Positions 24,386-33,753 of a stretch of DNA of 64,000 nucleotides are shown piece by piece. The stretch's first letter is position 1. Each line of letters opens with the position of its first letter. This DNA is from Alphaproteobacteria bacterium (GTDB taxonomy: Bacteria > Pseudomonadota > Alphaproteobacteria > UBA828): assembly GCA_965214705.1 (NCBI GenBank), contig OZ243972.1, forward strand, positions 544,001-608,000, in the 5' to 3' direction. Under the pieces are notes generated by a model. It was not told the origin of the DNA. It worked only from the letters and a program-made list of their open reading frames with translations, and searched no databases. A program made the translations under genes and the position numbers.

Positions 24386-25906
24386 GGAAGGACTCCGGGA
24401 TCGACCGTTGGCATGCGGCTGCCGGCGCGGACGCTCGGCAGGAGGCGTGCGCCCTCATCCGTTCGCCCTCCGCCGCTGCAGGAGGGCGTCGATGGCCCGA
24501 CGCCGATCGTCGCTCATGCCGCCGCTCTCGGCCGGCGCGGGACGATCCGGTGCCCGTTCACCACGCTTGGCGAGGGACTCGTCCTGCGCGTTGCGCGTTG
24601 CCTCCCGCCGGCGCTCCTCGCGGGCGGCCCTGGCGGACTCGAAGCTCTTGCGCCCGGCCGGCGTGCGCTTGGCTTCGCGGGCGATCTCCTCCAGGGTTTC
24701 GCCCATGCCGACAAGCGCACCGCGCTCCGGGATCGGGTTCGCCTCCGCCTCGGACACTGACGGAGCCATGAGCGCCTCCATGTCGACGTGCGGGGTCTCT
24801 TGCCGCAGGGTCTTCATCGCCGAGGTGGCCACGCGGCGGCGCCTGGCAGCCTCCCGCGCCCCGCGCGGATCGAGCGCGTCATAGGGTGTGTCGGCCTCCG
24901 CCATGCACAGGAACCCGCCACTTTCGTCGAGGACCGCGAGACGGTCCATGGGGCCGTACAGCGGAACGCGCACCTCCACCTTGCTGCGCGCCGGCACCGA
25001 CCAGAGGGCCTCTGCCGTGTAGATTGCGCCTGCCAACCTGAAACGTCCCTGCCAGAGCGTGCGCGTCGCCGGCCGGCTGAACACGACCCGGAGCACGTCG
25101 GGATCTATGTCCGTGCGCGTCCATCCGTCATCGACGACGGCGGCGGCAAAGGCCTCGTCGGGAGACCGGCCACGCAGGAAGCCCTCTTGCGGTTGCCGGT
25201 TGTACCAGGCCAGCCCCTCGGCGACTCTGCGGGCGAACGCCTCGTCGTCGAGCGGGTTCGGTTCCGGCGCGCGGCCCACGTTGGCCGTCTTCTTGCGCAT
25301 GCGGTTGCCGCCGATGTAACCGGGAAAGGTCGAGAACACGCCCCGGTCCAGGGCAGCGAACGCGCCTTCGATTGCCTTGGCGGCCGCGTTATAGGGCAGG
25401 GCCTTGATGACGGCGCTGGGACGCTCCCGGAAGCGGCTGGCAACCGCGTCGTCGTCGTCCAGATACCGCACCTTGCAGAGCTGCATGGCGTCGTCGACGA
25501 ATTCGCTCCAGTTGTACTCGCCGCCGTTGTCCAGATAGAGAAGCTCGGGCATTCCCCATCGCGGGTCGCTCACCATCTCAATGAAGGACTCGATGACGTG
25601 CTCCTGCCGTATGCCCTCGCCCTTGCGCGGGTGGACGACGGAGCCACAGATGCGGTTCGTTCCCCAGTCGATCCAGCCGATGAGCTTGGCCGTGCAGGGG
25701 CTGCCGTCCGCGCGGCGCCTGTGGATATCCATTACCTTCACGTCACCGATCACGGCCTTCATGGGCCGCCAGTCCTCCCGGCTGCGGAGGATGCGGGGCA
25801 TGCTCTCGTCGAACCAGCGCTTGTGGTCGTTCTCAAAGGTGTCGAGATGCCGCCTGGGCGCCGCGCGCTCCACTAGGCCGCGGCTTACCGTGCAGAGTCG
25901 CTTTAG

Positions 25907-27108
25907 GGAAAGTCTGAACAACCCCATCTTGGCGGCTTCGAGGGGGAGAGGGGGCTTGGATTTGAAGCTCGACGATATTGCCGGCAGGCCGGGGGCTGCT
26001 TTTGTCGCGGGATACGGAGCGAACGGGCGATATCCGCGTCGATCCGCCGCATTCCCCGTCGTCCCGCCGGCGGCGGGCGGACTGCTCCCCTGTCATTGCG
26101 TCGCGTAGCGGCCGGCGATCAGCAGGTTCGAGAACCCCAGCAGCAACGCGATGCGCTGCCTGTTCTTCGCCACGCCCCGGTAGCGCACCTTGGCGTAGCC
26201 GAAGTGCCGCTTCACGTACAGGAACGGATGCTCCACCTTCGCCCGCACCGACGCCTTGCGCGTCTCGGCCGCCGCTTCGGCGCCACCCCCGGCCAGCAGC
26301 CGGCGCCGCCCCGGCTTCATCGCCACACGCCACTCGACACCGCCATCCCGGTGCTCGGGACGCTTCTCCACCCCCTGGTAGCCCGCGTCGCCCCACGCCG
26401 TCGTCTCAGCGCCATGCAGCAGCGCTCCCGCCTGCGTCACGTCGCTTGCGTTGGCCGCCGTCGTCACCACGCTGTGTGCCAGACCCGACCCGGCGTCCAC
26501 CCCGATGTGCGCCTTCATCCCGAAATACCACTGCTTGCCCTTCCTCGTCTGACGCATCTCAGGGTCCCGTGCGCGGCGCCGGTTCTTCGTCGACGACGGC
26601 GCCTCGATGATGCTCGCGTCAACGATCGTCCCCGTGCGCAGCCAATGGCCGCGCGACGCCAGGTGCGCATTGATCTCCTCGAACAGACCCTCGCCCAGGC
26701 CGTGCTTCTCCAGAAGATGCCGGAAGTTCAGGATGGTGGTCTCGTCAGGCAACGCCTCCGCCAGCCGCAGCCCCACGAAACGCCGCACCGACTCCACCTC
26801 GTAGAGCAGGTCCTCCATCCCCGGATCGCTCAGGTTGTAGAACAGCTGCACGCAGTGAACGCGCAGCATCACCGCAAGCGGGTACGGGCGCCGACCGCGC
26901 CCCGCCTTCGGATAGAACGGCTCGATCCGCCGTTCCAGCCGCTCCCAGGGAACCAGCTTGTCCATCTTCTCCAGGAACAGCTCGCGCCGCGTCCGGCGCT
27001 TCTTCAAGTCGTGCTCCAGTTCCGAAAAGCTCGCCTGTGCCATGACCCGATCATCCAATCTGCGACTCCTACGAAAATCATGGCACACCCGACTTGATCA
27101 GACCTTCC
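25907..27108 (-). mobile_element. IS5-family element (IS5 group)
   Basis: Ends GGAAAGTCTGAACA / TGATCAGACCTTCC; TSD TTAG (YTAR) at 25903-06 and 27109-12. Confidence 0.92.
26093..27043 (-). CDS. IS5 transposase
   Basis: PDETTILNFRHLLE, IVDASII, FGMKAHIGVD, GDAGYQG and RAKVEHPF motifs. Confidence 0.95.
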   Translation of the reverse strand: MAQASFSELEHDLKKRRTRRELFLEKMDKLVPWERLERRIEPFYPKAGRGRRPYPLAVMLRVHCVQLFYNLSDPGMEDLLYEVESVRRFVGLRLAEALPDETTILNFRHLLEKHGLGEGLFEEINAHLASRGHWLRTGTIVDASIIEAPSSTKNRRRARDPEMRQTRKGKQWYFGMKAHIGVDAGSGLAHSVVTTAANASDVTQAGALLHGAETTAWGDAGYQGVEKRPEHRDGGVEWRVAMKPGRRRLLAGGGAEAAAETRKASVRAKVEHPFLYVKRHFGYAKVRYRGVAKNRQRIALLLGFSNLLIAGRYATQ

Positions 27109-27915
27109 TTAGCTGCCTCGTGCCGGGGTTGAAGCCTGCCTCCGCGGTCTTCTTCGCCAGCTCGGCGCTGACGGCGCGGGCTATGCGGCGCCAGCCCCAA
27201 TCCAAGCTCTCCGCGTAGATGGAGCCGGAAAGCTCAATTGCCCACGCTCGGAATGACGCCTTGACCTCGTCATCGAAGGGGACGGCGGCATCCCACGCAC
27301 GCGAGATAAAGACGCCGGGTCGCCCCCGGTTCGGCCGGCTCGCAGGAAGCAGGCCGGCCAGGTCCTCCCGTTCGTAACCGGCCAGCCAGCGCCGGACCGT
27401 GCGCGACGAGCATCCGGCGGAGCGTGCCGCAGCATCGACCGCCTTTGCACGTTCAGGCGAGCCGGGCGCGCACTGCAGGATCGGGCGAATGATCTCGTAA
27501 CGCTCGTGGGCCCTGGAGGTTCGCCAGCCCTTGTCGGCCAGGGCCGGCAGCGCTGCGGCGACAGTCCGAGGCGAATGACCTTGTGCCGAAGGCGCGCACG
27601 GGATGCGTGCCGGGAGAGCGGCGCCTCGATCGCTCGGCAGGGGCGCAGATGCAGGCGAAGGCTCCGGCAATGCCGGCGGCGCTGCGGTGGCTGCCTCGGC
27701 TGCCCGGAGAGCCTGTGCCAGCTCTTCCACACGATCCCTTGCACCCACCATGACCTTGCCGCCATTGCCGCCGGGCCCGCGTGACCAGCGCACGCCAAGC
27801 GGGATGCCGTGTAGCGGCTTTCCCTTCAGGTCGCAGCGGAAATAGTTTCTCGCCGTTCGGGTGGATACGCCCCAGATGCCAGCGGCGATCGACGAGGATA
27901 CCCACTCCGCCGGCA

Positions 27916-28173
27916 TCACGCGGCCTTGCCTGGCTCGTCCCCTGCCCGAGGCGCGGGGCGCGGGATGTCGGCGGGCCACTCAAGATCGGCGGGCCAGCGG
28001 GCGGAGATGCGTTGCACGATGCGCTCGGCCCGGCGCCCGGTGATATCGTGGCCGGCCACGAGGCGGGCGTACAGGTCGCCGCTGCCACTACAGCGCAACG
28101 ACATCGTCGACGGCGCGCAACCGGCTGCCTCCGCCGCGCGCTCGATAAGGACGATCAGGTGTCGGTGCCACAT
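27916..28173 (-). CDS. Cro/Ner-like small DNA-binding protein
   Basis: Divergent from the repressor; TGATG translational coupling to the MuA gene; WP.DLEWP.DIPRP tail seen in alphaproteobacterial phage proteins. Confidence 0.65.
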   Translation of the reverse strand: MWHRHLIVLIERAAEAAGCAPSTMSLRCSGSGDLYARLVAGHDITGRRAERIVQRISARWPADLEWPADIPRPAPRAGDEPGKAA

Positions 28174-28184
28174 ATGACACGAAA

Positions 28185-28237
28185 TGCCATAACTAGCAAT
28201 TCATGTCAACCGTTGATGTGATGTGCTATTTCTAGCA
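28185..28237. promoter_or_regulatory. Two operator-like palindromes in the repressor/cro intergenic switch
   Basis: TGCCA-TAAC-TAGCA (28185-98) and TGCTA-TTTC-TAGCA (28224-37). Confidence 0.55.
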
Positions 28238-28242
28238 TCGTC

Positions 28243-29067
28243 ATGACTCGCGCCATGGAGAGACTCCAGGCCTCGATCCGGAAGGCTCTGGACGAGCGCC
28301 GCACCAACCCGTCCAGCGTCGCTCGCACCGCCGGCCTGCCGCAACGTGCGCTCTACAACGTGCTTCACGGTCACGTTCCGTCGCTGGATCGGGCTGCCGA
28401 AATCTGCGAAGCCCTCGGTCTCGAACTGTACGTTGGGCTCCCGCCTGAGTCGGAGGAGGCCCAGGTCAAGCGCTTCGTAGGCAGTGTCATTCGCCAGACG
28501 AGCGAAGCTGCCACTGTCGATGACCTGAGACGGGACTTGCGCGGGTTACTCTCCGGAATCGACGAATTGCGCGCAGACATAGCGGCGCTGAGAGGCGAGC
28601 CGGCGCTTTCCGTTCTGGAATGGTCCAGCGACGAGAGCTTGCCACGCGGGGCGCACCCCGTGGGAGTGGTCAAGCTCGCCGCAATGGCCGGGGGCGGGGT
28701 GGATCAGGCGAGTGAGGACGTTACCGGCTGCATCTGGTTTCGCCGAGACTGGCTGGAAAGCCACGGCCTCGATCCCGAGCGCTGCGCGGTCATCGGAGTC
28801 AGAAGCGACTCGATGGCGCCGACGTTGCCGGACGGTTGCTCGATCCTGGTCGATCGTTCGAGCGTCGAGTGGCGGCTAGAACATGTGTACGTGCTGCGCA
28901 CCGGCGACGGCCTCGTGGTGAAGCGTGCCGGTGCGCGGGAGGACGGCAGCCGCCTGTTGGTGTGCGACAATCCTGCGTCTGAGCCAGAGCCGTATCCCGA
29001 CGACGCGGACATCTTCGGCCAAATCGTCTGGGCCGGACGGGCGATCATGGAGGCCATCAGCGAATAA
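28243..29067 (+). CDS. CI-like repressor, HTH plus S24 autopeptidase
   Basis: N-terminal HTH, AG cleavage site (MAGGG), DSM.P Ser and VVKR Lys. Confidence 0.85.
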   Translation: MTRAMERLQASIRKALDERRTNPSSVARTAGLPQRALYNVLHGHVPSLDRAAEICEALGLELYVGLPPESEEAQVKRFVGSVIRQTSEAATVDDLRRDLRGLLSGIDELRADIAALRGEPALSVLEWSSDESLPRGAHPVGVVKLAAMAGGGVDQASEDVTGCIWFRRDWLESHGLDPERCAVIGVRSDSMAPTLPDGCSILVDRSSVEWRLEHVYVLRTGDGLVVKRAGAREDGSRLLVCDNPASEPEPYPDDADIFGQIVWAGRAIMEAISE

Positions 29068-29149
29068 CGGGCTTGGTCTCGCTCCGTGGAGGCGGCCTGC
29101 TTAAGCTGGCTTGCGGGATCGAGGCGGACTGCAGACCGAGCGCCGTCTC

Positions 29150-29728
29150 TCACTCGAGAGAGGCTGTCGTGAACACCGCGCCGCCCAAGATCGAGCGCGT
29201 CGCCCCAGCACGCTGCATCGCCACCGCGAAGGGGTTGTCGCGGCAGGCATCCAGGATGATCAGACGAAGGCCCTTCGCCCGTTCCACGGCGCGGGAGAGC
29301 AGATCGAGCGGCACCGCCTCGAACTCCACGTCGGCATCGCTCAGGAGACGGGCGTCCACAGGGATCAGGAAGTTGCGCTTGTCCACCTCGATGCCGTGGC
29401 CCGCGTAGAACACCACCGCCATCTCCGAGGCGGATGCGGCGAGACTGAACTTCTGGAGACCGTCCCACAGCTCCACCCGGCTCGCGTTCGGGAGCTGAGT
29501 GACCGCGAAGCCGAGGCGCTCCAGGGAGGCACCGATGTCGGTCGCGTCGTTGAGGGGGTTCGCCAGCGACGGCGCATGGGCATACGACGCATTGCCGATC
29601 ACTAGCGCCACGCGCTGGCCGGCCGAGGCGGGTGCAGTGAGCGCACACATCAGCAGGATCGCAGAGGCGACAAGAATCGGCCAGGGGCTCCGCCCGTGGA
29701 CCCCGGAGGTAAAGAGGTAAGGACTCAT
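29150..29728 (-). pseudogene. C-terminally truncated caspase (C14) paralogue
   Basis: FYAGHG and ILDACR dyad; homology to its paralogues ends after ATRSI at ~29189. Confidence 0.75.
29681..29721 (-). promoter_or_regulatory. Putative DGR cis element (IMH-adjacent repeat plus GGA-loop hairpin)
   Basis: Minus strand after the FGE stop: CTTACCTCTTTACCTC, then CCAcGGGC-GGA-GCCCcTGG. Confidence 0.5.
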
Positions 29729-31866
29729 GGGGTGAGCGTCCGGGAAACCCGAAACCCGACGAGGTCGCCGCGGACCTCGGTGGAAGCCTCGTTGCGGCCA
29801 GCTGAGCGGAGGACCCACGGATTGAGCCAGGAACCGCCGCGAAGAACGCGCTTCTCGCAATCACCTCCCGACACCCAAGCGCTTCCAGCGGTGGGCGCGC
29901 CCGCGTAGCTATCGTGCCAGCAATCCTCAACCCACTCCCACACGTTGCCGAGCATGTCCGACAGTCCAAACCCGTTCTCGCCGTAGCTGCCGACTCGCGC
30001 CGCATGGATCGAACCATCCCGACACGGTGCAGGCTCAGGCTCCCAATCGTAGTCAAATTCCGCCTTGGCCGTACGGTCATAGCCGTTGGCGTGATCGCAT
30101 TGCGCCCCAACGTCGTCGCCCCAATAGCGAGAAGTGCGCGTCCCCGCCCGTGCCGCATACTCCCACTCCGCCTCCGACAGGAGGCGATAGCGCTCCCCGG
30201 TCTTCCGCGACAGCCAGCGCACATACGCCTTCGCATCATCCCAGCTCACGTTGATCACGGGACGCCGCCCCCGGCCCCAGCCTTGGTCATCCGGCCGATA
30301 GCCGTTGCAACCGCCCGCCGCCACGCACGCATCCCACTCCGCAAACGTCACCTCGTACTTGCCCACCGCGAACGGCGCCGGGATCGTCACCCTGTGCTGG
30401 GGGCCTTCGTCATCATCCCGCCCTTCCTCTGACGACGGCGAGCCCATCATGAACGAGCCCGCCGGCACCACCACCATCTCGGGGCACTCAGGGCAATCGC
30501 GGAATACCCGGCCCGGACGCATTGCCGCCTGCTTGCGCGACTCTTCCTCTCCTGCGGCCAGCAGCAGCTTGGCCGTCTCCGCGTCGAGATAGCCGGTCTC
30601 GTTACCGCCTTGGGACGATTGCCAACCGCCAATGGACGCGCGCGTGCGTTGCCCGAATAGCCCGTCCGCCGGACCGGGATCGAATCCCAGCGCAGCCAGC
30701 CCCTTCTGAATCTGCCGCCGCTCGTCGCGCTCCAGCCCCAGAGACGTCTCCACCATTTCGGGCGCGGGCGGCGCCGGCTCGGGCGATACCACCCGTTCCG
30801 GCTCGTCATGGGTCACCGCCACCTGAACGTCTGGCTTCTCATCTGGCGAGACAGTCAGCCGAGCGAGCCTGTTTCGCGCCAGAGCCTCGTAGGTGCCGCC
30901 GGGGAACTGCTCCAGATAGGCCCCGAAGTCGGCCGCGTGCGTGCTGTCCTTCACCGACTCCCAGAACACCCGTTCAGCGGCAAGTTCTTCCGCTGTCAGA
31001 CGCCGGTCGTTGCCAGGGACCACTGGCTCCGGCTTGGTATCCTCGGGGTCTGGTTTGACGATTGTCTCGGGTTCTTGCGGCTCGGGCAGCGCCGCCAGAT
31101 ACGCCCCCTCGCTCGAAAGGGAGCCGTAGACGAATGGCTCCTGACGCCCGCCCGTCGCCGCGAGCACCGCGTCCCGCACCTTTCGGAACATCAGGCCTAC
31201 CTCCAGCCCCGGCTCCTCCAGATGCTTCAGCAATGCCGAGGTGTAGGGGCTGTTGCGGCCATCGCCGTCCGCCGCGACCGTCCCCTCCTTCGCCGCATAC
31301 GCCACCAGCGTCTCGCCCGAGGGCTCCACGCTCGCCAGACCCCGCCCGATCGAGCGCGTCGCGCCCGAGCGCTGCATCGCCACCGCGAAGGGGTTGTCGC
31401 GACACGCATCGAGGATGATCAGACGAAGGCCCTTGGCCCGCTCCACGGCGCGGGAGAGCAGGTCGAGCGGCACAGTCTCGAACTCCACGTCGGCGTCGCT
31501 CAACAGGCGCGCGTCCACGGGGATCAGGAAGTTGCGCTTGTCCACCTCGATTCCGTGGCCGGCGTAGAACACCACCGCCATTTCCGAGGCCGAGGCCGCG
31601 AGGCTGAATTTCTGGAGACCGTCCCACAGCTCCGCCCGGCTCGCGTTCGGGAGCTTCGTGACCGCGAAGCCGAGGCGGTCTAGCGCCGCACCGATGTCGG
31701 TTGCGTCGTTGAGGGGGTTGGCCAGCGACGACGCATGGGCATACGACGCATTGCCGATCACCAGCGCCACGCGCTGGCCTGCCACGGCAGGGTTCACTAG
31801 GAGTGATAACGACGCGACGACCATCGTCATCATTGCTACTGATCTGAACACCTGCAACATCAGCAT
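29725..31866 (-). CDS. Secreted caspase + peptidoglycan-binding + FGE-sulfatase (CLec fold) protein
   Basis: Signal peptide, His/Cys dyad, DPGPADGLFG.RTR, F.MGS, EAEWEYAARAG, GNVWEW, RGGSW and GFRV motifs. Confidence 0.9.
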   Translation of the reverse strand: MLMLQVFRSVAMMTMVVASLSLLVNPAVAGQRVALVIGNASYAHASSLANPLNDATDIGAALDRLGFAVTKLPNASRAELWDGLQKFSLAASASEMAVVFYAGHGIEVDKRNFLIPVDARLLSDADVEFETVPLDLLSRAVERAKGLRLIILDACRDNPFAVAMQRSGATRSIGRGLASVEPSGETLVAYAAKEGTVAADGDGRNSPYTSALLKHLEEPGLEVGLMFRKVRDAVLAATGGRQEPFVYGSLSSEGAYLAALPEPQEPETIVKPDPEDTKPEPVVPGNDRRLTAEELAAERVFWESVKDSTHAADFGAYLEQFPGGTYEALARNRLARLTVSPDEKPDVQVAVTHDEPERVVSPEPAPPAPEMVETSLGLERDERRQIQKGLAALGFDPGPADGLFGQRTRASIGGWQSSQGGNETGYLDAETAKLLLAAGEEESRKQAAMRPGRVFRDCPECPEMVVVPAGSFMMGSPSSEEGRDDDEGPQHRVTIPAPFAVGKYEVTFAEWDACVAAGGCNGYRPDDQGWGRGRRPVINVSWDDAKAYVRWLSRKTGERYRLLSEAEWEYAARAGTRTSRYWGDDVGAQCDHANGYDRTAKAEFDYDWEPEPAPCRDGSIHAARVGSYGENGFGLSDMLGNVWEWVEDCWHDSYAGAPTAGSAWVSGGDCEKRVLRGGSWLNPWVLRSAGRNEASTEVRGDLVGFRVSRTLTP

Positions 31867-32031
31867 TCCCTATATCAAGGCAGCCTCAAGGCAATAAATC
31901 GCCTCCCTTCCCGCCAGTAGTGGTGCAGTCATGCCACGGGAGCTCCACGGGGGCGTTCGTCCCTCGAATCATCGCGCGATCGGGGGTCCGCAATGGGATG
32001 TGTCCGAGCCAGACGAAGAACGTCGCTCTCA

Positions 32032-33753
32032 TTAAAAGCCGCAGTCCTCTTTCGTTGTCGCGATCCATGCTCGCCCAACGCCCGACTTCGAAAAACAGCC
32101 GTCGGTCCAGTTACCCTCGTACCGGTCGCCAGACGCAGTCGCGTATACACCGGAGCCGTGCGGCCTGCCGTTGCGGTATTCGCCTTCGTAGCGGTCACCG
32201 TCGGGCCAAACGTAGGTCCCGTGTCCGTACTTCTTGCCATTGCGGAAACTGCCTTCGGACACATGCACTCCACTAGGCGTTCGCCAAACCGCGCGTCCTT
32301 GACCGGATGCCTTTCCGTTGACGCAGGCGCCGGACCACGTGACGACCTCATCTCCGGTCACGCCGGAGGAGTCCCATAGCTGACACGGCTGGTTCTCGGC
32401 GATAATCCAGTCGGGGCCGAACGGCTCGAGTGCCGCCTCCCCCGCTGCTAGCAGAGTCCTGGCGGCGTCGGTGTCAAGGTAGCCGGTTGCTACCATCCCT
32501 CGTGTTGACACCTGCCATCGGCTGATCGCTTCCCTTGTGCGTTGGCCAAACAATCCATCAGACGGGCCGGGGTCGAATCCCAGAACGGTGAGACCCTGTT
32601 GAATTAGTCGACGTTCTTCTCGATTCAGCCTCAGCCCAGCTTCAATGAAATCCGGCGTGGGAGCCAAGGGCTCCGGCGACACTTCCTGCTTAGGCTCTTC
32701 GGGCGTGACCGCCACCTGGACCGAAGGCTCTTCGTCTTGTGAATTGGTAGTGAGTCGCGCAAGCCGGTTCCGCGCGAGGGCTTCGTACGTCCCGCCGGGG
32801 AACTGCCTCAGATAGGCCTCGAAGTCGGCCGCATGTTCGCTGTCGTTGATCGATTCCCAGAACAGCAGTTCCTTCTCCGCCGAGATGCGCCGATCCACGA
32901 CTTGGTCCGGGTCCGGCGCCTTTGGTTCCTGGCCGCCTTGCACCTTCACCGTCTCGGGTTCGGGCGTTGGCTCCGGCTCAGGCCTCGCGGTCAGATAAGC
33001 TCCCTCGCTTGAGAGCGAGCCGTAGACGAAGGGCTCCTGACGGCCGCCCGTCGTAGCCAGCACCGCATCACGCACCTTGCGGAACATCAAGCCCACCTCG
33101 AGGCCCGGCTCCTCCAGATGCTTCAGCAATGCCGAGGTGTAGGGGCTGTTGCGGCCCTCGCCGTCGGCCGCGACCGTGCCCTCCTTCGCCGCATAGGCCA
33201 CCAGCGTCTCGCCCGAGGGCTCGACCCTCCCCAGCCCCCGCCCGATCGAGCGCGTCGCGCCCGAGCGCTGCATCGCCACTGCGAAGGGATTGTCGCGGCA
33301 GGCATCAAGGATGATCAGGCGCAGGCCCTTCGCCCGCTCCACCGCCCGCGAGAGCAGATCGAGCGGCACCGCTTCGAACTCCACGTCGGCGTCGCTCTGC
33401 AGGCGCGCGTCGACGGGGATCAGGAAGTTGCGCTTGTCCACCTCGATGCCGTGGCCCGCGTAGAACACCACCGCCATCTCGGAGGCCGATGCCGCGAGAC
33501 TGAACTTCTGGAGTCCGTCCCACAGCTCCGCCCGGCTCGCGTTCGGGAGCTGCGTGACGGCGAAGCCGAGGCGCTCCAGGGAGGCGCCGATGTCGTTTGC
33601 GTCGTTGAGGGGGTTCGCCAGGCTCGGCGCGTGGGCATAGGACGCATTCCCGATCACCAGCGCCACGCGCTGACCGGCCAAGGCCGGGGCCGCGAGAAGG
33701 TGCAGGCCGAGCAGCGCTGCACCTGCCAACAACACGGCACTTCTGAGTGACAT
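32032..33753 (-). CDS. Secreted caspase + peptidoglycan-binding + MORN-repeat protein
   Basis: Near-identical caspase N-terminus; YEGEYRNGRPHGSG MORN repeats. Confidence 0.88.
   Translation of the reverse strand: MSLRSAVLLAGAALLGLHLLAAPALAGQRVALVIGNASYAHAPSLANPLNDANDIGASLERLGFAVTQLPNASRAELWDGLQKFSLAASASEMAVVFYAGHGIEVDKRNFLIPVDARLQSDADVEFEAVPLDLLSRAVERAKGLRLIILDACRDNPFAVAMQRSGATRSIGRGLGRVEPSGETLVAYAAKEGTVAADGEGRNSPYTSALLKHLEEPGLEVGLMFRKVRDAVLATTGGRQEPFVYGSLSSEGAYLTARPEPEPTPEPETVKVQGGQEPKAPDPDQVVDRRISAEKELLFWESINDSEHAADFEAYLRQFPGGTYEALARNRLARLTTNSQDEEPSVQVAVTPEEPKQEVSPEPLAPTPDFIEAGLRLNREERRLIQQGLTVLGFDPGPSDGLFGQRTREAISRWQVSTRGMVATGYLDTDAARTLLAAGEAALEPFGPDWIIAENQPCQLWDSSGVTGDEVVTWSGACVNGKASGQGRAVWRTPSGVHVSEGSFRNGKKYGHGTYVWPDGDRYEGEYRNGRPHGSGVYATASGDRYEGNWTDGCFSKSGVGRAWIATTKEDCGF

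What the first reader, a model, noticed from the sequence alone, without database searches (positions are those of the whole stretch)
29681..29850. Orphan DGR-type target: secreted caspase with a variable-looking FGE/CLec C-terminus and a GGA-loop hairpin
Seen: between RGGSW and GFRV, many of the normally variable positions are NNC codons (CTC, GTC, GGC, AAC, GTC, GGC, GAC, CTC, GTC). The stop is followed by TTACCTCT/TTACCTC repeats and a GGGC-GGA-GCCC hairpin. Established: FGE-sulfatase/CLec domains are common DGR targets, variable codons derive from AAC, and GRA-loop hairpins follow the VR. No RT or template repeat occurs in the window. Inference: a remote DGR diversifies a ligand-binding domain fused to a caspase with an intact His/Cys dyad, suggesting a hypervariable sensor-protease.
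Basis: partly seen in the sequence, partly recalled or inferred. Interest (0 to 1): 0.75.

Follow-up and report, generated by a model that had tools for sequence, protein, structure and literature searches.

The report
Orphan DGR target in caspase gene
The tail of a secreted caspase-like protease gene bears the marks of a mutagenic retroelement (DGR) that this genome no longer carries, so its once hypervariable binding domain now looks frozen.

Summary
On the minus strand, window 29734-29851 is the 3' end of a 713-aa gene (signal peptide, Peptidase_C14, PG_binding_1, FGE-sulfatase/CLec). It has 15 of 23 NNC codons against a gene mean of 7.9.

- **DGR found in a congener.** G015 carries a complete DGR (target, Avd, RT, TR) with the same C-terminus.
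- **Adenine footprint.** The window differs from the G015 TR at 21/26 adenine sites but 13/76 other sites (p=8e-9).
- **Orthologue comparison.** Against the G006 orthologue, the VR differs at codon positions 1+2 in 23/46 sites versus 79/726 upstream (p=4e-10). Position 3 is not elevated, and 143/150 bases after the stop are identical.
- **No DGR here.** The 7.92-Mb genome has no DGR-type RT, Avd or TR in seven kinds of search.
- **No variation seen.** Contigs of three runs from two studies carry the same VR.
- **Hairpin.** Its stem has a C.C mismatch.

Best reading (0.72): a DGR-written but now orphan, frozen variable region. "A remote DGR diversifies it" is not supported.

Caspase-FGE DGR targets are already published for cyanobacteria, so this is a new member of a known kind. 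Related cassettes occur in MAGs of several phyla: five loci hold intact ones and eight hold decayed ones.

The parts
29725..31866 (-). 713-aa gene: predicted signal peptide, orthocaspase, peptidoglycan-binding domain, FGE/CLec domain with the VR at its end
   Evidence: ORF. Pfam Peptidase_C14 1.2e-34, PG_binding_1 4.4e-13, FGE-sulfatase 7.2e-56.
31780..31866 (-). N-terminal hydrophobic leader (MLMLQVFRSVAMMTMVVASLSLLVNPAVA|GQ), a likely Sec signal peptide
   Evidence: Read from the translation. Inference only: no signal-peptide predictor was run.
31117..31773 (-). Peptidase_C14 (caspase) domain, aa 32-250, with AGHG (aa 102) and DACR (aa 153) motifs
30562..30729 (-). PG_binding_1 domain, aa 380-435
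29746..30489 (-). FGE-sulfatase / C-type-lectin-fold domain, aa 460-707. Closest solved structure is PvdO (5HHA). It lacks the FGE catalytic cysteine pair.
   Evidence: PvdO E=2.8e-62; in the alignment to human SUMF1 the query has a gap and no Cys where the enzyme has its ...rsyc... segment.
29734..29851 (-). Variable region (VR): the stretch homologous to the G015 template repeat. Variable codons span 29758-29826.
29734..29748 (-). IMH-like 3' end of the VR (GTTTCCCGGACGCTC), identical to the same 15 nt of the G015 VR. The G015 TR has C instead of the G in ...CCCG-G-ACGCTC.
29706..29720 (-). Doubled TTACCTC motif after the stop, conserved after IMH-type FGE ends in many phyla. Function unknown.
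29681..29699 (-). Hairpin CCACGGGC-GGA-GCCCCTGG (8-bp stem with one C.C mismatch, 3-nt loop), followed by a T-rich tail
29150..29731 (-). Downstream truncated caspase paralogue (193 aa, ATGA overlap with the stop). Its first codons overlap the repeat and hairpin.

Best explanation
The last ~120 nt of this secreted orthocaspase / PG-binding / C-type-lectin-fold (FGE-like) gene are a variable region written by a diversity-generating retroelement. An AAC-rich template RNA was reverse-transcribed with random misincorporation at adenines, and the cDNA replaced this segment. That randomised some 11-13 codons of the ligand-binding face while keeping their third-position C. The element responsible belongs to a family still intact in one congener (G015) and in five MAG loci from several phyla. 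This genome no longer has it: no RT, Avd or TR. The VR is therefore an orphan, fixed as one variant, and is drifting by ordinary mutation (synonymous changes at non-adenine sites, a 3-nt deletion, a mismatch in the downstream hairpin).

Shown: the DGR footprint, the absence of the DGR from the assembly, and the same VR in independent assemblies. Inferred: loss of the DGR rather than its never having been in this lineage, export of the protein, and ligand-gated or ligand-targeted proteolysis in the periplasm or cell wall as its function.
For: (1) G015 carries a canonical DGR. It comprises a target ending in the same FGE C-terminus, a 132-aa Avd-like ORF, an RT with LPIGNLTSQ and YVDD, and a 125-nt TR/VR pair with 18 of 23 mismatches at TR adenines.
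(2) The window VR differs from that TR at 21/26 adenine sites against 13/76 non-adenine sites (Fisher 8e-9). Among 8 distinct non-G015 copies, column entropy is 1.49 bits at 28 TR-adenine columns and 0.42 bits at 77 others (Mann-Whitney 1e-12).
(3) NNC is retained at 10/11 AAC-type sites against 5.7 expected given the amino acids (P=0.007). This is as strong as in the proven G015 VRs (P 0.02-0.05).
(4) Against the G006 orthologue, the VR has position 1+2 mismatches at 23/46 sites against 79/726 upstream (p=4e-10). Position 3 is 4/23 against 106/363, and 143/150 nt after the stop are identical.
(5) Against the C3 paralogue, codons that differ at positions 1/2 keep position 3 in 13/14 cases against 32/78 upstream (p=3e-4).
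(6) No DGR in the genome. 57 RVT_1 hits; of 20 representatives, 18 are group II intron RTs, 1 is a retron St85 type and 1 is Drt4/5-like below cut-off. The G015 RT finds nothing above 68 bits in G000. Avd: PF05635 gives 0 hits and tblastn a best E of 2. TR: blastn, an nhmmer VR profile, a predicted-TR pattern and the G015 TR as query find only the two FGE copies and one ordinary FGE gene.
(7) Contigs of X1 (1 difference in 519 nt), X4 (0 in 956) and X7 (0 in 800) span the VR unchanged, across two studies.
(8) Loss is common in this family. 8 of 77 relatives' loci keep only Avd/RT pieces downstream of the VR, and 5 keep intact cassettes with adenine-specific TR/VR pairs. Only 1 of 21 genus genomes has the RT, while 11 hold VR-type copies.
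Against: - The TR used is heterologous. The window VR is too diverged from it to be found by BLAST at E<=0.01, and 13/76 non-adenine sites differ.
- The window's residues match PvdO, which is not a DGR target, at about 4 of 8 'variable' sites. Part of the pattern could therefore be ancestral.
- The conditional NNC test gives only P=0.007. All tests were chosen after seeing the data, and the copies are related to one another.
- The assembly is 98.47% complete with 8.72% contamination, so a plasmid or phage carrying a DGR could be missing.
- The reads laid were contigs, which drop rare variants, and one of the runs may be the source of the assembly.
- The IMH-like end is still identical to that of an active VR, and the NNC lattice is well kept, so the freeze need not be old or final.
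Confidence: 0.72

Rival explanations
1. The VR is an active remote target, diversified in trans by a DGR elsewhere: on an unassembled plasmid or prophage of this organism, or one that enters intermittently.
For: - The IMH-like 15 nt are identical to those of the active G015 VR, and the NNC lattice is well preserved.
- DGRs can act on remote targets (PMC5758913, passages read).
- This DGR family sits in MAGs of several phyla, so it moves horizontally.
- The genome is 98.47% complete, not closed.
Against: - No DGR RT, Avd or TR in 7.92 Mb by seven kinds of search.
- The same VR appears in contigs of three runs from two studies.
- The hairpin stem carries a central C.C mismatch and does not fold above background. 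In BPP-1, stem disruption abolishes homing (PMC3240598).
- There is a 3-nt deletion and synonymous drift at non-adenine sites relative to sister copies.
Confidence: 0.13
2. This copy was never DGR-written. It is an ordinary PvdO-like FGE-fold paralogue whose substrate-groove loop is naturally variable. DGR templates in relatives simply placed their AAC codons on those naturally variable positions, and the NNC excess comes from GC-rich codon usage and amino-acid composition.
For: - PvdO (5HHA) is about 50% identical and shares R-N-A...RGD...GFRV with the window in this segment.
- An ordinary FGE gene of the same genome (C3:1940038-1940158) also has many NNC codons in the segment (counted by eye).
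- The genome is 67% GC.
Against: - The NNC excess survives conditioning on the amino acids (10/11 against 5.7 expected, P=0.007).
- Against a 90%-identical orthologue, only positions 1+2 of the VR codons are hypermutated (p=4e-10), while position 3 and 143/150 nt of the 3' flank are conserved.
- The copy carries the IMH, the TTACCTC repeat and the hairpin module that accompany DGR-type ends.
- All 11 residues at AAC-type sites are among the 15 reachable from AAC.
Confidence: 0.08
3. This rival concerns the hairpin only and does not exclude the best explanation. The GGA-loop hairpin is an intrinsic terminator or attenuator of the target gene rather than a DGR cruciform.
For: - A GC-rich 8-9 bp stem is followed by CGATTT / T-rich tails in most copies, and in DGR loci it lies between the target and avd.
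- Loops vary (GGA 11, GAA 4, GCA 2, others) and have 3 nt, unlike the sequence-specific 4-nt GRNA loop (PMC3240598).
- G015, L108 and L140 have a separate 4-nt-loop hairpin right after the IMH that holds the stop codon, as in BPP-1.
Against: - The simple terminator scan finds nothing in 29100-30000.
- In tandem arrays the hairpin lies inside the next gene's first codons.
- Intact DGR loci L073, L075 and L097 have only this hairpin after their VRs.
- It associates with IMH-type ends (20/50 against 6/48).
Confidence: 0.4

Closest known systems
Cyanobacterial DGR variable proteins with N-terminal (ortho)caspase and C-terminal FGE-sulfatase/CLec domain: Trichodesmium Tery_2077 (PMC4143802, passages read) and the orthocaspase VPs and paralogues of Vallota-Eastman et al. 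2020 (PMC7517822, passages read)
   Same: Same architecture logic: Peptidase_C14 at the N-terminus and a DGR-type VR at the 3' end of an FGE/CLec domain. Paralogue families with alternative domains. One paralogue with 'remnant TR-VR homology' and no proximal RT is reported for Nostoc PCC 7120.
   Different: - Here the organism is an alphaproteobacterial MAG lineage by record titles.
[quoted passage not shown]
- The whole genome lacks any DGR, whereas those genomes keep one elsewhere.
Bordetella phage BPP-1 DGR target site (VR, IMH, hairpin/cruciform; Guo et al. 2011, PMC3240598, passages read)
   Same: A VR at the gene's 3' end, a GC-rich IMH-like end, and a GC-rich 8-bp inverted repeat downstream, starting 34 nt after the IMH-like end. 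The published range is 4-34 bp.
   Different: The loop is 3 nt (GGA) rather than 4-nt GRNA. The stem has a mismatch in this copy. There is an extra doubled TTACCTC motif. No cognate TR, Avd or RT is present.
PvdO (PDB 5HHA), periplasmic FGE-fold protein of pyoverdine maturation
   Same: Closest solved relative of the C-terminal domain (E=2.8e-62, residues 7-271 of the query). It is periplasmic and has no FGE catalytic cysteines.
   Different: PvdO is a standalone protein and not a DGR target. Here the domain is fused to a caspase and a PG-binding domain and carries a DGR footprint. No pyoverdine context was looked for.
Treponema denticola TvpA (PDB 2Y3C), an FGE-type CLec DGR variable protein with remote targets
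   Same: An FGE-subtype CLec fold used as the DGR scaffold. Weak sequence match (E=2e-9 over residues 41-115).
   Different: Much more distant than PvdO, and TvpA keeps its DGR.

Membership tests
DGR variable region / target gene | VR at the 3' end of an ORF within a C-type-lectin (FGE-subtype) fold | tested here: met
   FGE-sulfatase aa 460-707. PvdO and FGE structures matched. The VR lies at 29734-29851, 7 nt before the stop.
DGR variable region / target gene | Substitutions relative to a template repeat confined to template adenines | tested here: met
   Tested against the TR of congener G015, which is heterologous: 21/26 adenine sites against 13/76 other sites differ (p=8e-9). G015's own VRs give 18/28 against 1/77 and 20/28 against 2/77.
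DGR variable region / target gene | Cognate TR in the same genome | tested here: not met
   - blastn at word size 7.
- nhmmer VR profile.
- Predicted-TR pattern, 0 of 21 genomes.
- G015 TR as query.
These found only the two FGE copies and one ordinary FGE gene.
DGR variable region / target gene | DGR-clade reverse transcriptase in the same genome | tested here: not met
   57 RVT_1 hits. Of 20 representatives, 18 are group II intron, 1 is retron St85 and 1 is unassigned. The G015 RT gives <=68 bits in G000 against 756 bits for itself and 87 bits by tblastn. No G[NS]xxSQ...YxDD motif in six frames (motif recalled).
DGR variable region / target gene | Accessory protein Avd | tested here: not met
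   PF05635 gives 0 hits. tblastn with the G015 Avd gives a best E of 2.
DGR variable region / target gene | IMH at the VR 3' end, differing slightly from the TR's IMH* | tested here: met
   GTTTCCCGGACGCTC (29734-29748) is identical to the G015 VR. The G015 TR has one C-for-G difference there.
DGR variable region / target gene | GC-rich 7-10 bp hairpin with a 4-nt GRNA loop, 4-34 bp downstream (PMC3240598) | tested here: inconclusive
   The stem is 8 bp with one C.C mismatch, the loop is 3-nt GGA, and it starts 34 nt after the IMH-like end. Fold z=-0.33. The same hairpin type, when intact, follows the VRs of intact DGRs L073, L075 and L097.
DGR variable region / target gene | Present-day sequence heterogeneity of the VR within the population | tested here: not met
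   Contigs of X1, X4 and X7 carry the same VR. These are contigs only, so rare variants would not be seen.
Peptidase C14 (caspase / orthocaspase) | Pfam domain plus the catalytic His and Cys | tested here: met
   PF00656 E=1.2e-34. AGHG at aa 102 and DACR at aa 153. That these motifs are the dyad is recalled, not tested.
Formylglycine-generating enzyme (catalytic FGE) | Active-site cysteine pair in the C-terminal segment | tested here: not met
   In the alignment to human SUMF1 (2AFT) the query has a gap and no cysteines at the ...rsyc... segment. The domain is therefore a binding scaffold, not the enzyme.
PvdO | Standalone periplasmic protein in a pyoverdine locus | not tested
   Only sequence similarity was seen. 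The neighbours here are caspase paralogues and a prophage.

The most novel reading that the evidence does not exclude
Orphan VR modules like this one (VR, IMH, doubled TTACCTC, hairpin) may not be dead relics. They may be dormant landing pads. A promiscuous DGR cassette family moves between phyla in one habitat (RT 68-84% identical in loci titled Alphaproteobacteria, Binatia, Thermodesulfobacteriota and Burkholderiales). It would re-arm such pads whenever it re-enters a cell. Diversification of these secreted caspase-lectin proteins would then be intermittent and community-driven, and the doubled TTACCTC motif would be a family-specific recognition element.
Probability: 0.12. Interest if true: 0.7.

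Novelty: new member of a known kind. Interest (0 to 1): 0.45.

Why it matters
It gives a clean, quantified example of what is left when a DGR is lost: a target gene frozen in one variant but still carrying the NNC codon lattice, the IMH and the downstream hairpin.

One genus, together with loci from several phyla, shows all three stages: intact cassettes, decaying cassettes and orphan VRs. That makes the life cycle of this retroelement family, and the idea of 'diversify, select, then discard the mutator', directly testable.

It also extends caspase-lectin variable proteins from cytosolic cyanobacterial systems to an apparently exported, peptidoglycan-binding protease in Alphaproteobacteria. 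Finally, it flags a conserved 3' motif (doubled TTACCTC) of unknown role.

Tried and rejected
- **The C3 copy as the TR.** Rejected: 73.7% identity with mismatches at all four bases. It is a standalone 316-aa FGE paralogue.
- **Third nhmmer hit, C3:1940038-1940158.** An ordinary FGE gene end, not a TR.
- **Predicted-TR pattern.** 0 of 21 genus genomes.
- **G004 RT fragments about 2 kb from its VR copy.** First taken for a decayed DGR, but only 28-33% identical to the G015 RT, so not counted as DGR remnants.
- **Retron St85-type RT (C1:1344230-1345267) and the Drt4/5-like RT (C3:1860879-1862549) as the mutator.** Neither is DGR-type. No repeat search around them was run.
- **Fold of the hairpin.** Two of the four stretches sent (L051 and L041) were misplaced and did not cover the hairpin, so only the window and G015 results are used.
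- **The repeat finder on the minus strand.** It returned an error about strand. A blastn self-comparison was used instead.
- **Terminator/promoter scan of 29100-30000.** Nothing found.
- **Read laying at 80% likeness.** It mostly laid paralogous contigs of other organisms. Depth and the long list of 'other letters' were not used, only the long contigs with 0-1 differences. X8 (share 0.25) has a 266-nt contig over 29432-29697 that stops before the VR and says nothing about it.
- **The search of earlier findings.** It returned two notes on other mobile elements of this genome, and neither bears on this finding.
- **Literature.** Searches for 'diversity-generating retroelement' with caspase, with sponge and symbiont, with remnant, variable region and lost, and with orthocaspase found no paper describing this alphaproteobacterial family or a DGR-less genome with such VRs. 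Supplementary tables of PMC7517822 and PMC5758913 were not opened and may list similar cases.
- **Structure prediction.** Not run, because the tool returns no coordinates and could not map the VR onto a surface.
Full report
**What is at the coordinates.** The finding lies on the minus strand. Window 29725-31866 is a 713-aa ORF. It has a hydrophobic N-terminal leader, Peptidase_C14 (aa 32-250, E=1.2e-34), PG_binding_1 (aa 380-435) and FGE-sulfatase (aa 460-707, E=7.2e-56). The caspase motifs AGHG and DACR are present. The protein ends ...RVLRGGSW-LNPWVLRSAGRNEASTEVRGDLV-GFRVSRTLTP*. Its stop overlaps (ATGA) the start of a 193-aa truncated caspase paralogue (29150-29731). A third paralogue (32032-33753) carries MORN repeats instead of FGE. 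The doubled TTACCTC lies at 29706-29720 and the hairpin at 29681-29699.

**Is the observation more than chance?** Yes. The segment has 15 NNC codons of 23. The gene mean is 7.9, and only 0.7% of sliding windows reach 15. The genome is 67% GC, so I conditioned on the encoded amino acids using genome codon usage. At the 11 codons that align to AAC-type template codons, 10 are NNC against 5.7 expected (P=0.007). The hairpin alone is weak in this copy: the 8-bp stem CCACGGGC/GCCCCTGG has a C.C mismatch, and the fold is no better than shuffles (z=-0.33).

**First test for a TR/RT in the genome.** The window is C1:544001-608000 of a 7.92-Mb, 3-contig genome that is 98.47% complete with 8.72% contamination. 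The VR region has one other match, C3:748376-748675, at 73.7% identity with mismatches at all bases. That match is the end of a standalone 316-aa secreted FGE protein, not a TR.

- RVT_1 gives 57 hits, none in the window.
- I fetched 20 of the 57, one per score group. 18 are group II intron RTs, one is a retron St85-type RT, and one is a Drt4/5-like RT below every cut-off.
- Avd (PF05635) gives no hit.
- A six-frame scan for the DGR RT motif (recalled) finds none.

At this stage the DGR idea looked refuted. However, the two copies differed in an odd way. Codons that differ at positions 1/2 keep position 3 in 13/14 cases in the VR-like segment, against 32/78 upstream (p=3e-4). The ~50 nt after the stop were also conserved, and that pattern occurs exactly twice in the genome.

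**Relatives decide it.** The 201-nt query found 17 places in 11 of 61 related genomes, all in the same genus (10 of the 20 other members). I aligned 16 of them, leaving out the partial L052. The block reads GCN NNC CGC NNC NGG NNC TCC NNC GNN NNC CGC NNC NNC NNC NNC GGS TTC CGY.

One genome, G015, has an RVT_1 hit directly downstream of its copy. The locus (L056) holds these parts:

| Part | Detail |
|---|---|
| Target | 952 aa: ankyrin-like repeats (read by eye from the translation, no domain scan), PG-binding, MORN, FGE |
| Avd-like ORF | 132 aa |
| RT | Contains LPIGNLTSQ and YVDD |
| TR/VR pair | 125 nt, 81.6% identical, no gaps; 18 of 23 mismatches at TR adenines (A>G 11, A>T 7) |

**Using the G015 TR as an independent predictor.** I used 10 distinct sequences. 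The five copies identical to L043 in the VR, and the 3'-truncated L049, were dropped.

- The window VR differs at 21/26 adenine sites and 13/76 other sites (p=8e-9).
- G015's own two VRs give 18/28 against 1/77 and 20/28 against 2/77.
- Among the 8 non-G015 sequences, entropy is 1.49 bits at adenine columns and 0.42 bits elsewhere (p=1e-12).

**The G006 orthologue.**

| Region | Positions 1+2 mismatched | Position 3 mismatched |
|---|---|---|
| Upstream, 363 codons | 79/726 | 106/363 |
| VR, 23 codons | 23/46 (p=4e-10) | 4/23 |

After the stop, 143 of 150 nt are identical. This is localised hypermutation of first and second codon positions on an AAC lattice, which is the DGR signature.

**A rival I took seriously.** The closest solved structure is PvdO (5HHA, E=2.8e-62). 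It is not a DGR target, yet it resembles the window at several 'variable' residues. So the window copy might be an undiversified homologue, with TR adenines placed on naturally variable positions. Three results argue against this, and I give the rival 0.08:

- the conditional NNC test;
- the orthologue comparison;
- the presence of the IMH, repeat and hairpin module.

The same alignment shows that the domain lacks the FGE catalytic cysteines, so it is a binding scaffold.

**Is there a DGR for it now?** None was found.

- With the G015 RT as query, only G015 of 21 genus genomes scores as a true homologue (756 bits). Everything else, G000 included, is <=68 bits, matching group II intron RTs at about 30% identity. 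tblastn agrees.
- G015's Avd finds nothing in G000 (best E=2).
- The G015 TR as a DNA query finds only VRs in the genus and no second TR. It does not even reach the window's VR at E<=0.01.
- An nhmmer profile of the VRs finds only the two copies plus one ordinary FGE gene in G000.
- A predicted-TR pattern finds nothing in 21 genomes.
- Contigs of three runs from two studies span the VR with 0-1 differences: X1 1/519, X4 0/956, X7 0/800. Contigs cannot show rare variants, and one run may be the source of the assembly.

**Loss is the common fate.** A scan of genome contigs returned 77 loci. By their record titles they are MAGs of Alphaproteobacteria, Binatia, Entotheonella, Latescibacterota, Arenicellales, Nitrospira and others.

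- Five loci (L073, L075, L097, L108, L140) have full-length RTs 68-84% identical to G015's. Their TR/VR pairs have 14/15, 14/15, 16/18, 16/21 and 17/18 mismatches at TR adenines.
- Eight loci (L130, L100, L082, L084, L107, L137, L101, L146) keep only pieces of Avd and/or RT after the VR.
- The rest show nothing within about 8 kb, though some loci are cut by contig ends.
- In the genus, 11 genomes hold VR-type copies and one holds the RT.
- The G004 copy has lost the NNC lattice (6/13). The RT fragments near it are not of the DGR family.

**The 3' module.** After IMH-type ends, many relatives carry TCCTTACCTC-N-TTACCTC, then a hairpin CC[AG][AG]GGGGC-loop-GCCCC[YY]GG, then CGATTT.

- Of 98 tails, the doubled motif occurs in 20/50 with an IMH-like end and 4/48 without. 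A perfect hairpin of >=7 bp occurs in 20/50 and 6/48 (the regular expressions are my own).
- Stems covary (A-T to G-C, AG/CT to AA/TT). Loops are GGA 11, GAA 4, GCA 2 and others.
- Guo et al. 2011 (PMC3240598, passages read) define 7-10 bp GC stems with 4-nt GRNA loops, 4-34 bp after the VR. They show that stem structure and loop sequence matter.
- Here the loop has 3 nt and the hairpin starts 34 nt after the IMH-like end.
- G015, L108 and L140 have an additional 4-nt-loop hairpin that holds the stop codon right after the IMH, as in BPP-1. The window lacks this hairpin.
- Intact DGR loci L073, L075 and L097 have only the second hairpin, so it may serve as the recognition structure, as a terminator, or as both.

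**Mechanism and function.** Shown: the VR footprint, the absence of the mutator, and the same VR in independent assemblies. Inferred: the protein is exported, is held at peptidoglycan by PG_binding_1, and uses the CLec face to bind a ligand that directs or gates the caspase-type protease. That face was once randomised at about 11-13 codons and is now fixed as L,V,G,N,A,S,V,G,D,L,V at the AAC-type sites. Its role could lie in self/non-self or phage/host recognition, as proposed for cytosolic caspase-CLec variable proteins (PMC7517822, PMC10907252, PMC7159879; passages read).

**Comparison with what is known.**

- A caspase-FGE DGR target was reported in Trichodesmium (Tery_2077; PMC4143802).
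- Orthocaspase variable proteins and their paralogues were reported across cyanobacteria, with one paralogue holding 'remnant TR-VR homology' and no proximal RT (PMC7517822).
- Remote targets are well known (PMC5758913).

So this is a new member of a known kind. The differences are the lineage, the export and PG-binding architecture, and a genome with VR-type genes but no DGR at all. The searches found no paper on this family. Supplementary tables were not opened.

**Verdict.** 'DGR-type orphan target' is supported, and 'a remote DGR diversifies it' is not. Best explanation: a DGR-written, now frozen VR (0.72). Interest 0.45.

Noticed in passing
window 24455-29190: The left end of a Mu-like prophage abuts and truncates the third caspase gene; homology to the G006 orthologue stops near 29186. 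It comprises a CI/S24 repressor at 28243-29067(+), a phrog_7669 ORF at 27916-28173(-), and a phage transposase (phrog_310). The transposase is split into 27098-27979 (profile 45-187) and 24455-25927 (profile 253-664) by an IS5-family DDE transposase at 26093-27088(-).
   Followed up: partly
G000 C3:747681-748631 (L018/L051) and L042-L045, L055: The standalone 316-aa FGE gene with its 3' element is 99-100% identical over about 1.2 kb in six genomes of the genus (G000, G005, G008, G017, G018, G020), while the flanks are unalignable. It looks like a gene-sized cassette moved recently by unknown means. Its VR is identical in all six.
   Followed up: partly
window 29706-29720 and the same place in L040-L055, L071-L146: The doubled TTACCTC motif (anti-Shine-Dalgarno-like CCUCC on the mRNA) lies between the stop codon and the hairpin. 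It is conserved across phyla after IMH-type FGE ends (20/50 against 4/48 tails). Its role is unknown.
   Followed up: partly
G005:C4:1851869-1854261 (L040, L050): Two tandem caspase-FGE genes 2.2 kb apart have near-identical flanks but different VRs, in a genome with no DGR RT. One VR (L040) still keeps 16 of 28 template adenines and is 81% identical to the G015 TR.
   Followed up: partly
whole genome G000: There are 57 RVT_1 hits, mostly multi-copy group II intron RTs (for example 18 copies with the same score). There is also a retron St85-type RT at C1:1344230-1345267 and an unassigned 557-aa RT (Drt4/5-like, below cut-offs) at C3:1860879-1862549.
   Followed up: partly
L100, L084, L082, L130 (relatives' loci): These loci hold decaying DGR cassettes with internal deletions. 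In L100, Avd residues 16-71 run straight into RT residues 49-162 and a 49-nt TR stub. L084 keeps Avd 17-62 and RT 210-238 only.
   Followed up: yes
window 29150-33753: Three tandem orthocaspase paralogues have near-identical protease domains but different C-terminal modules (MORN; FGE with VR; truncated). The G015 DGR target combines ankyrin-like (by eye), PG-binding, MORN and FGE, which points to domain shuffling around a shared PG_binding core.
   Followed up: no
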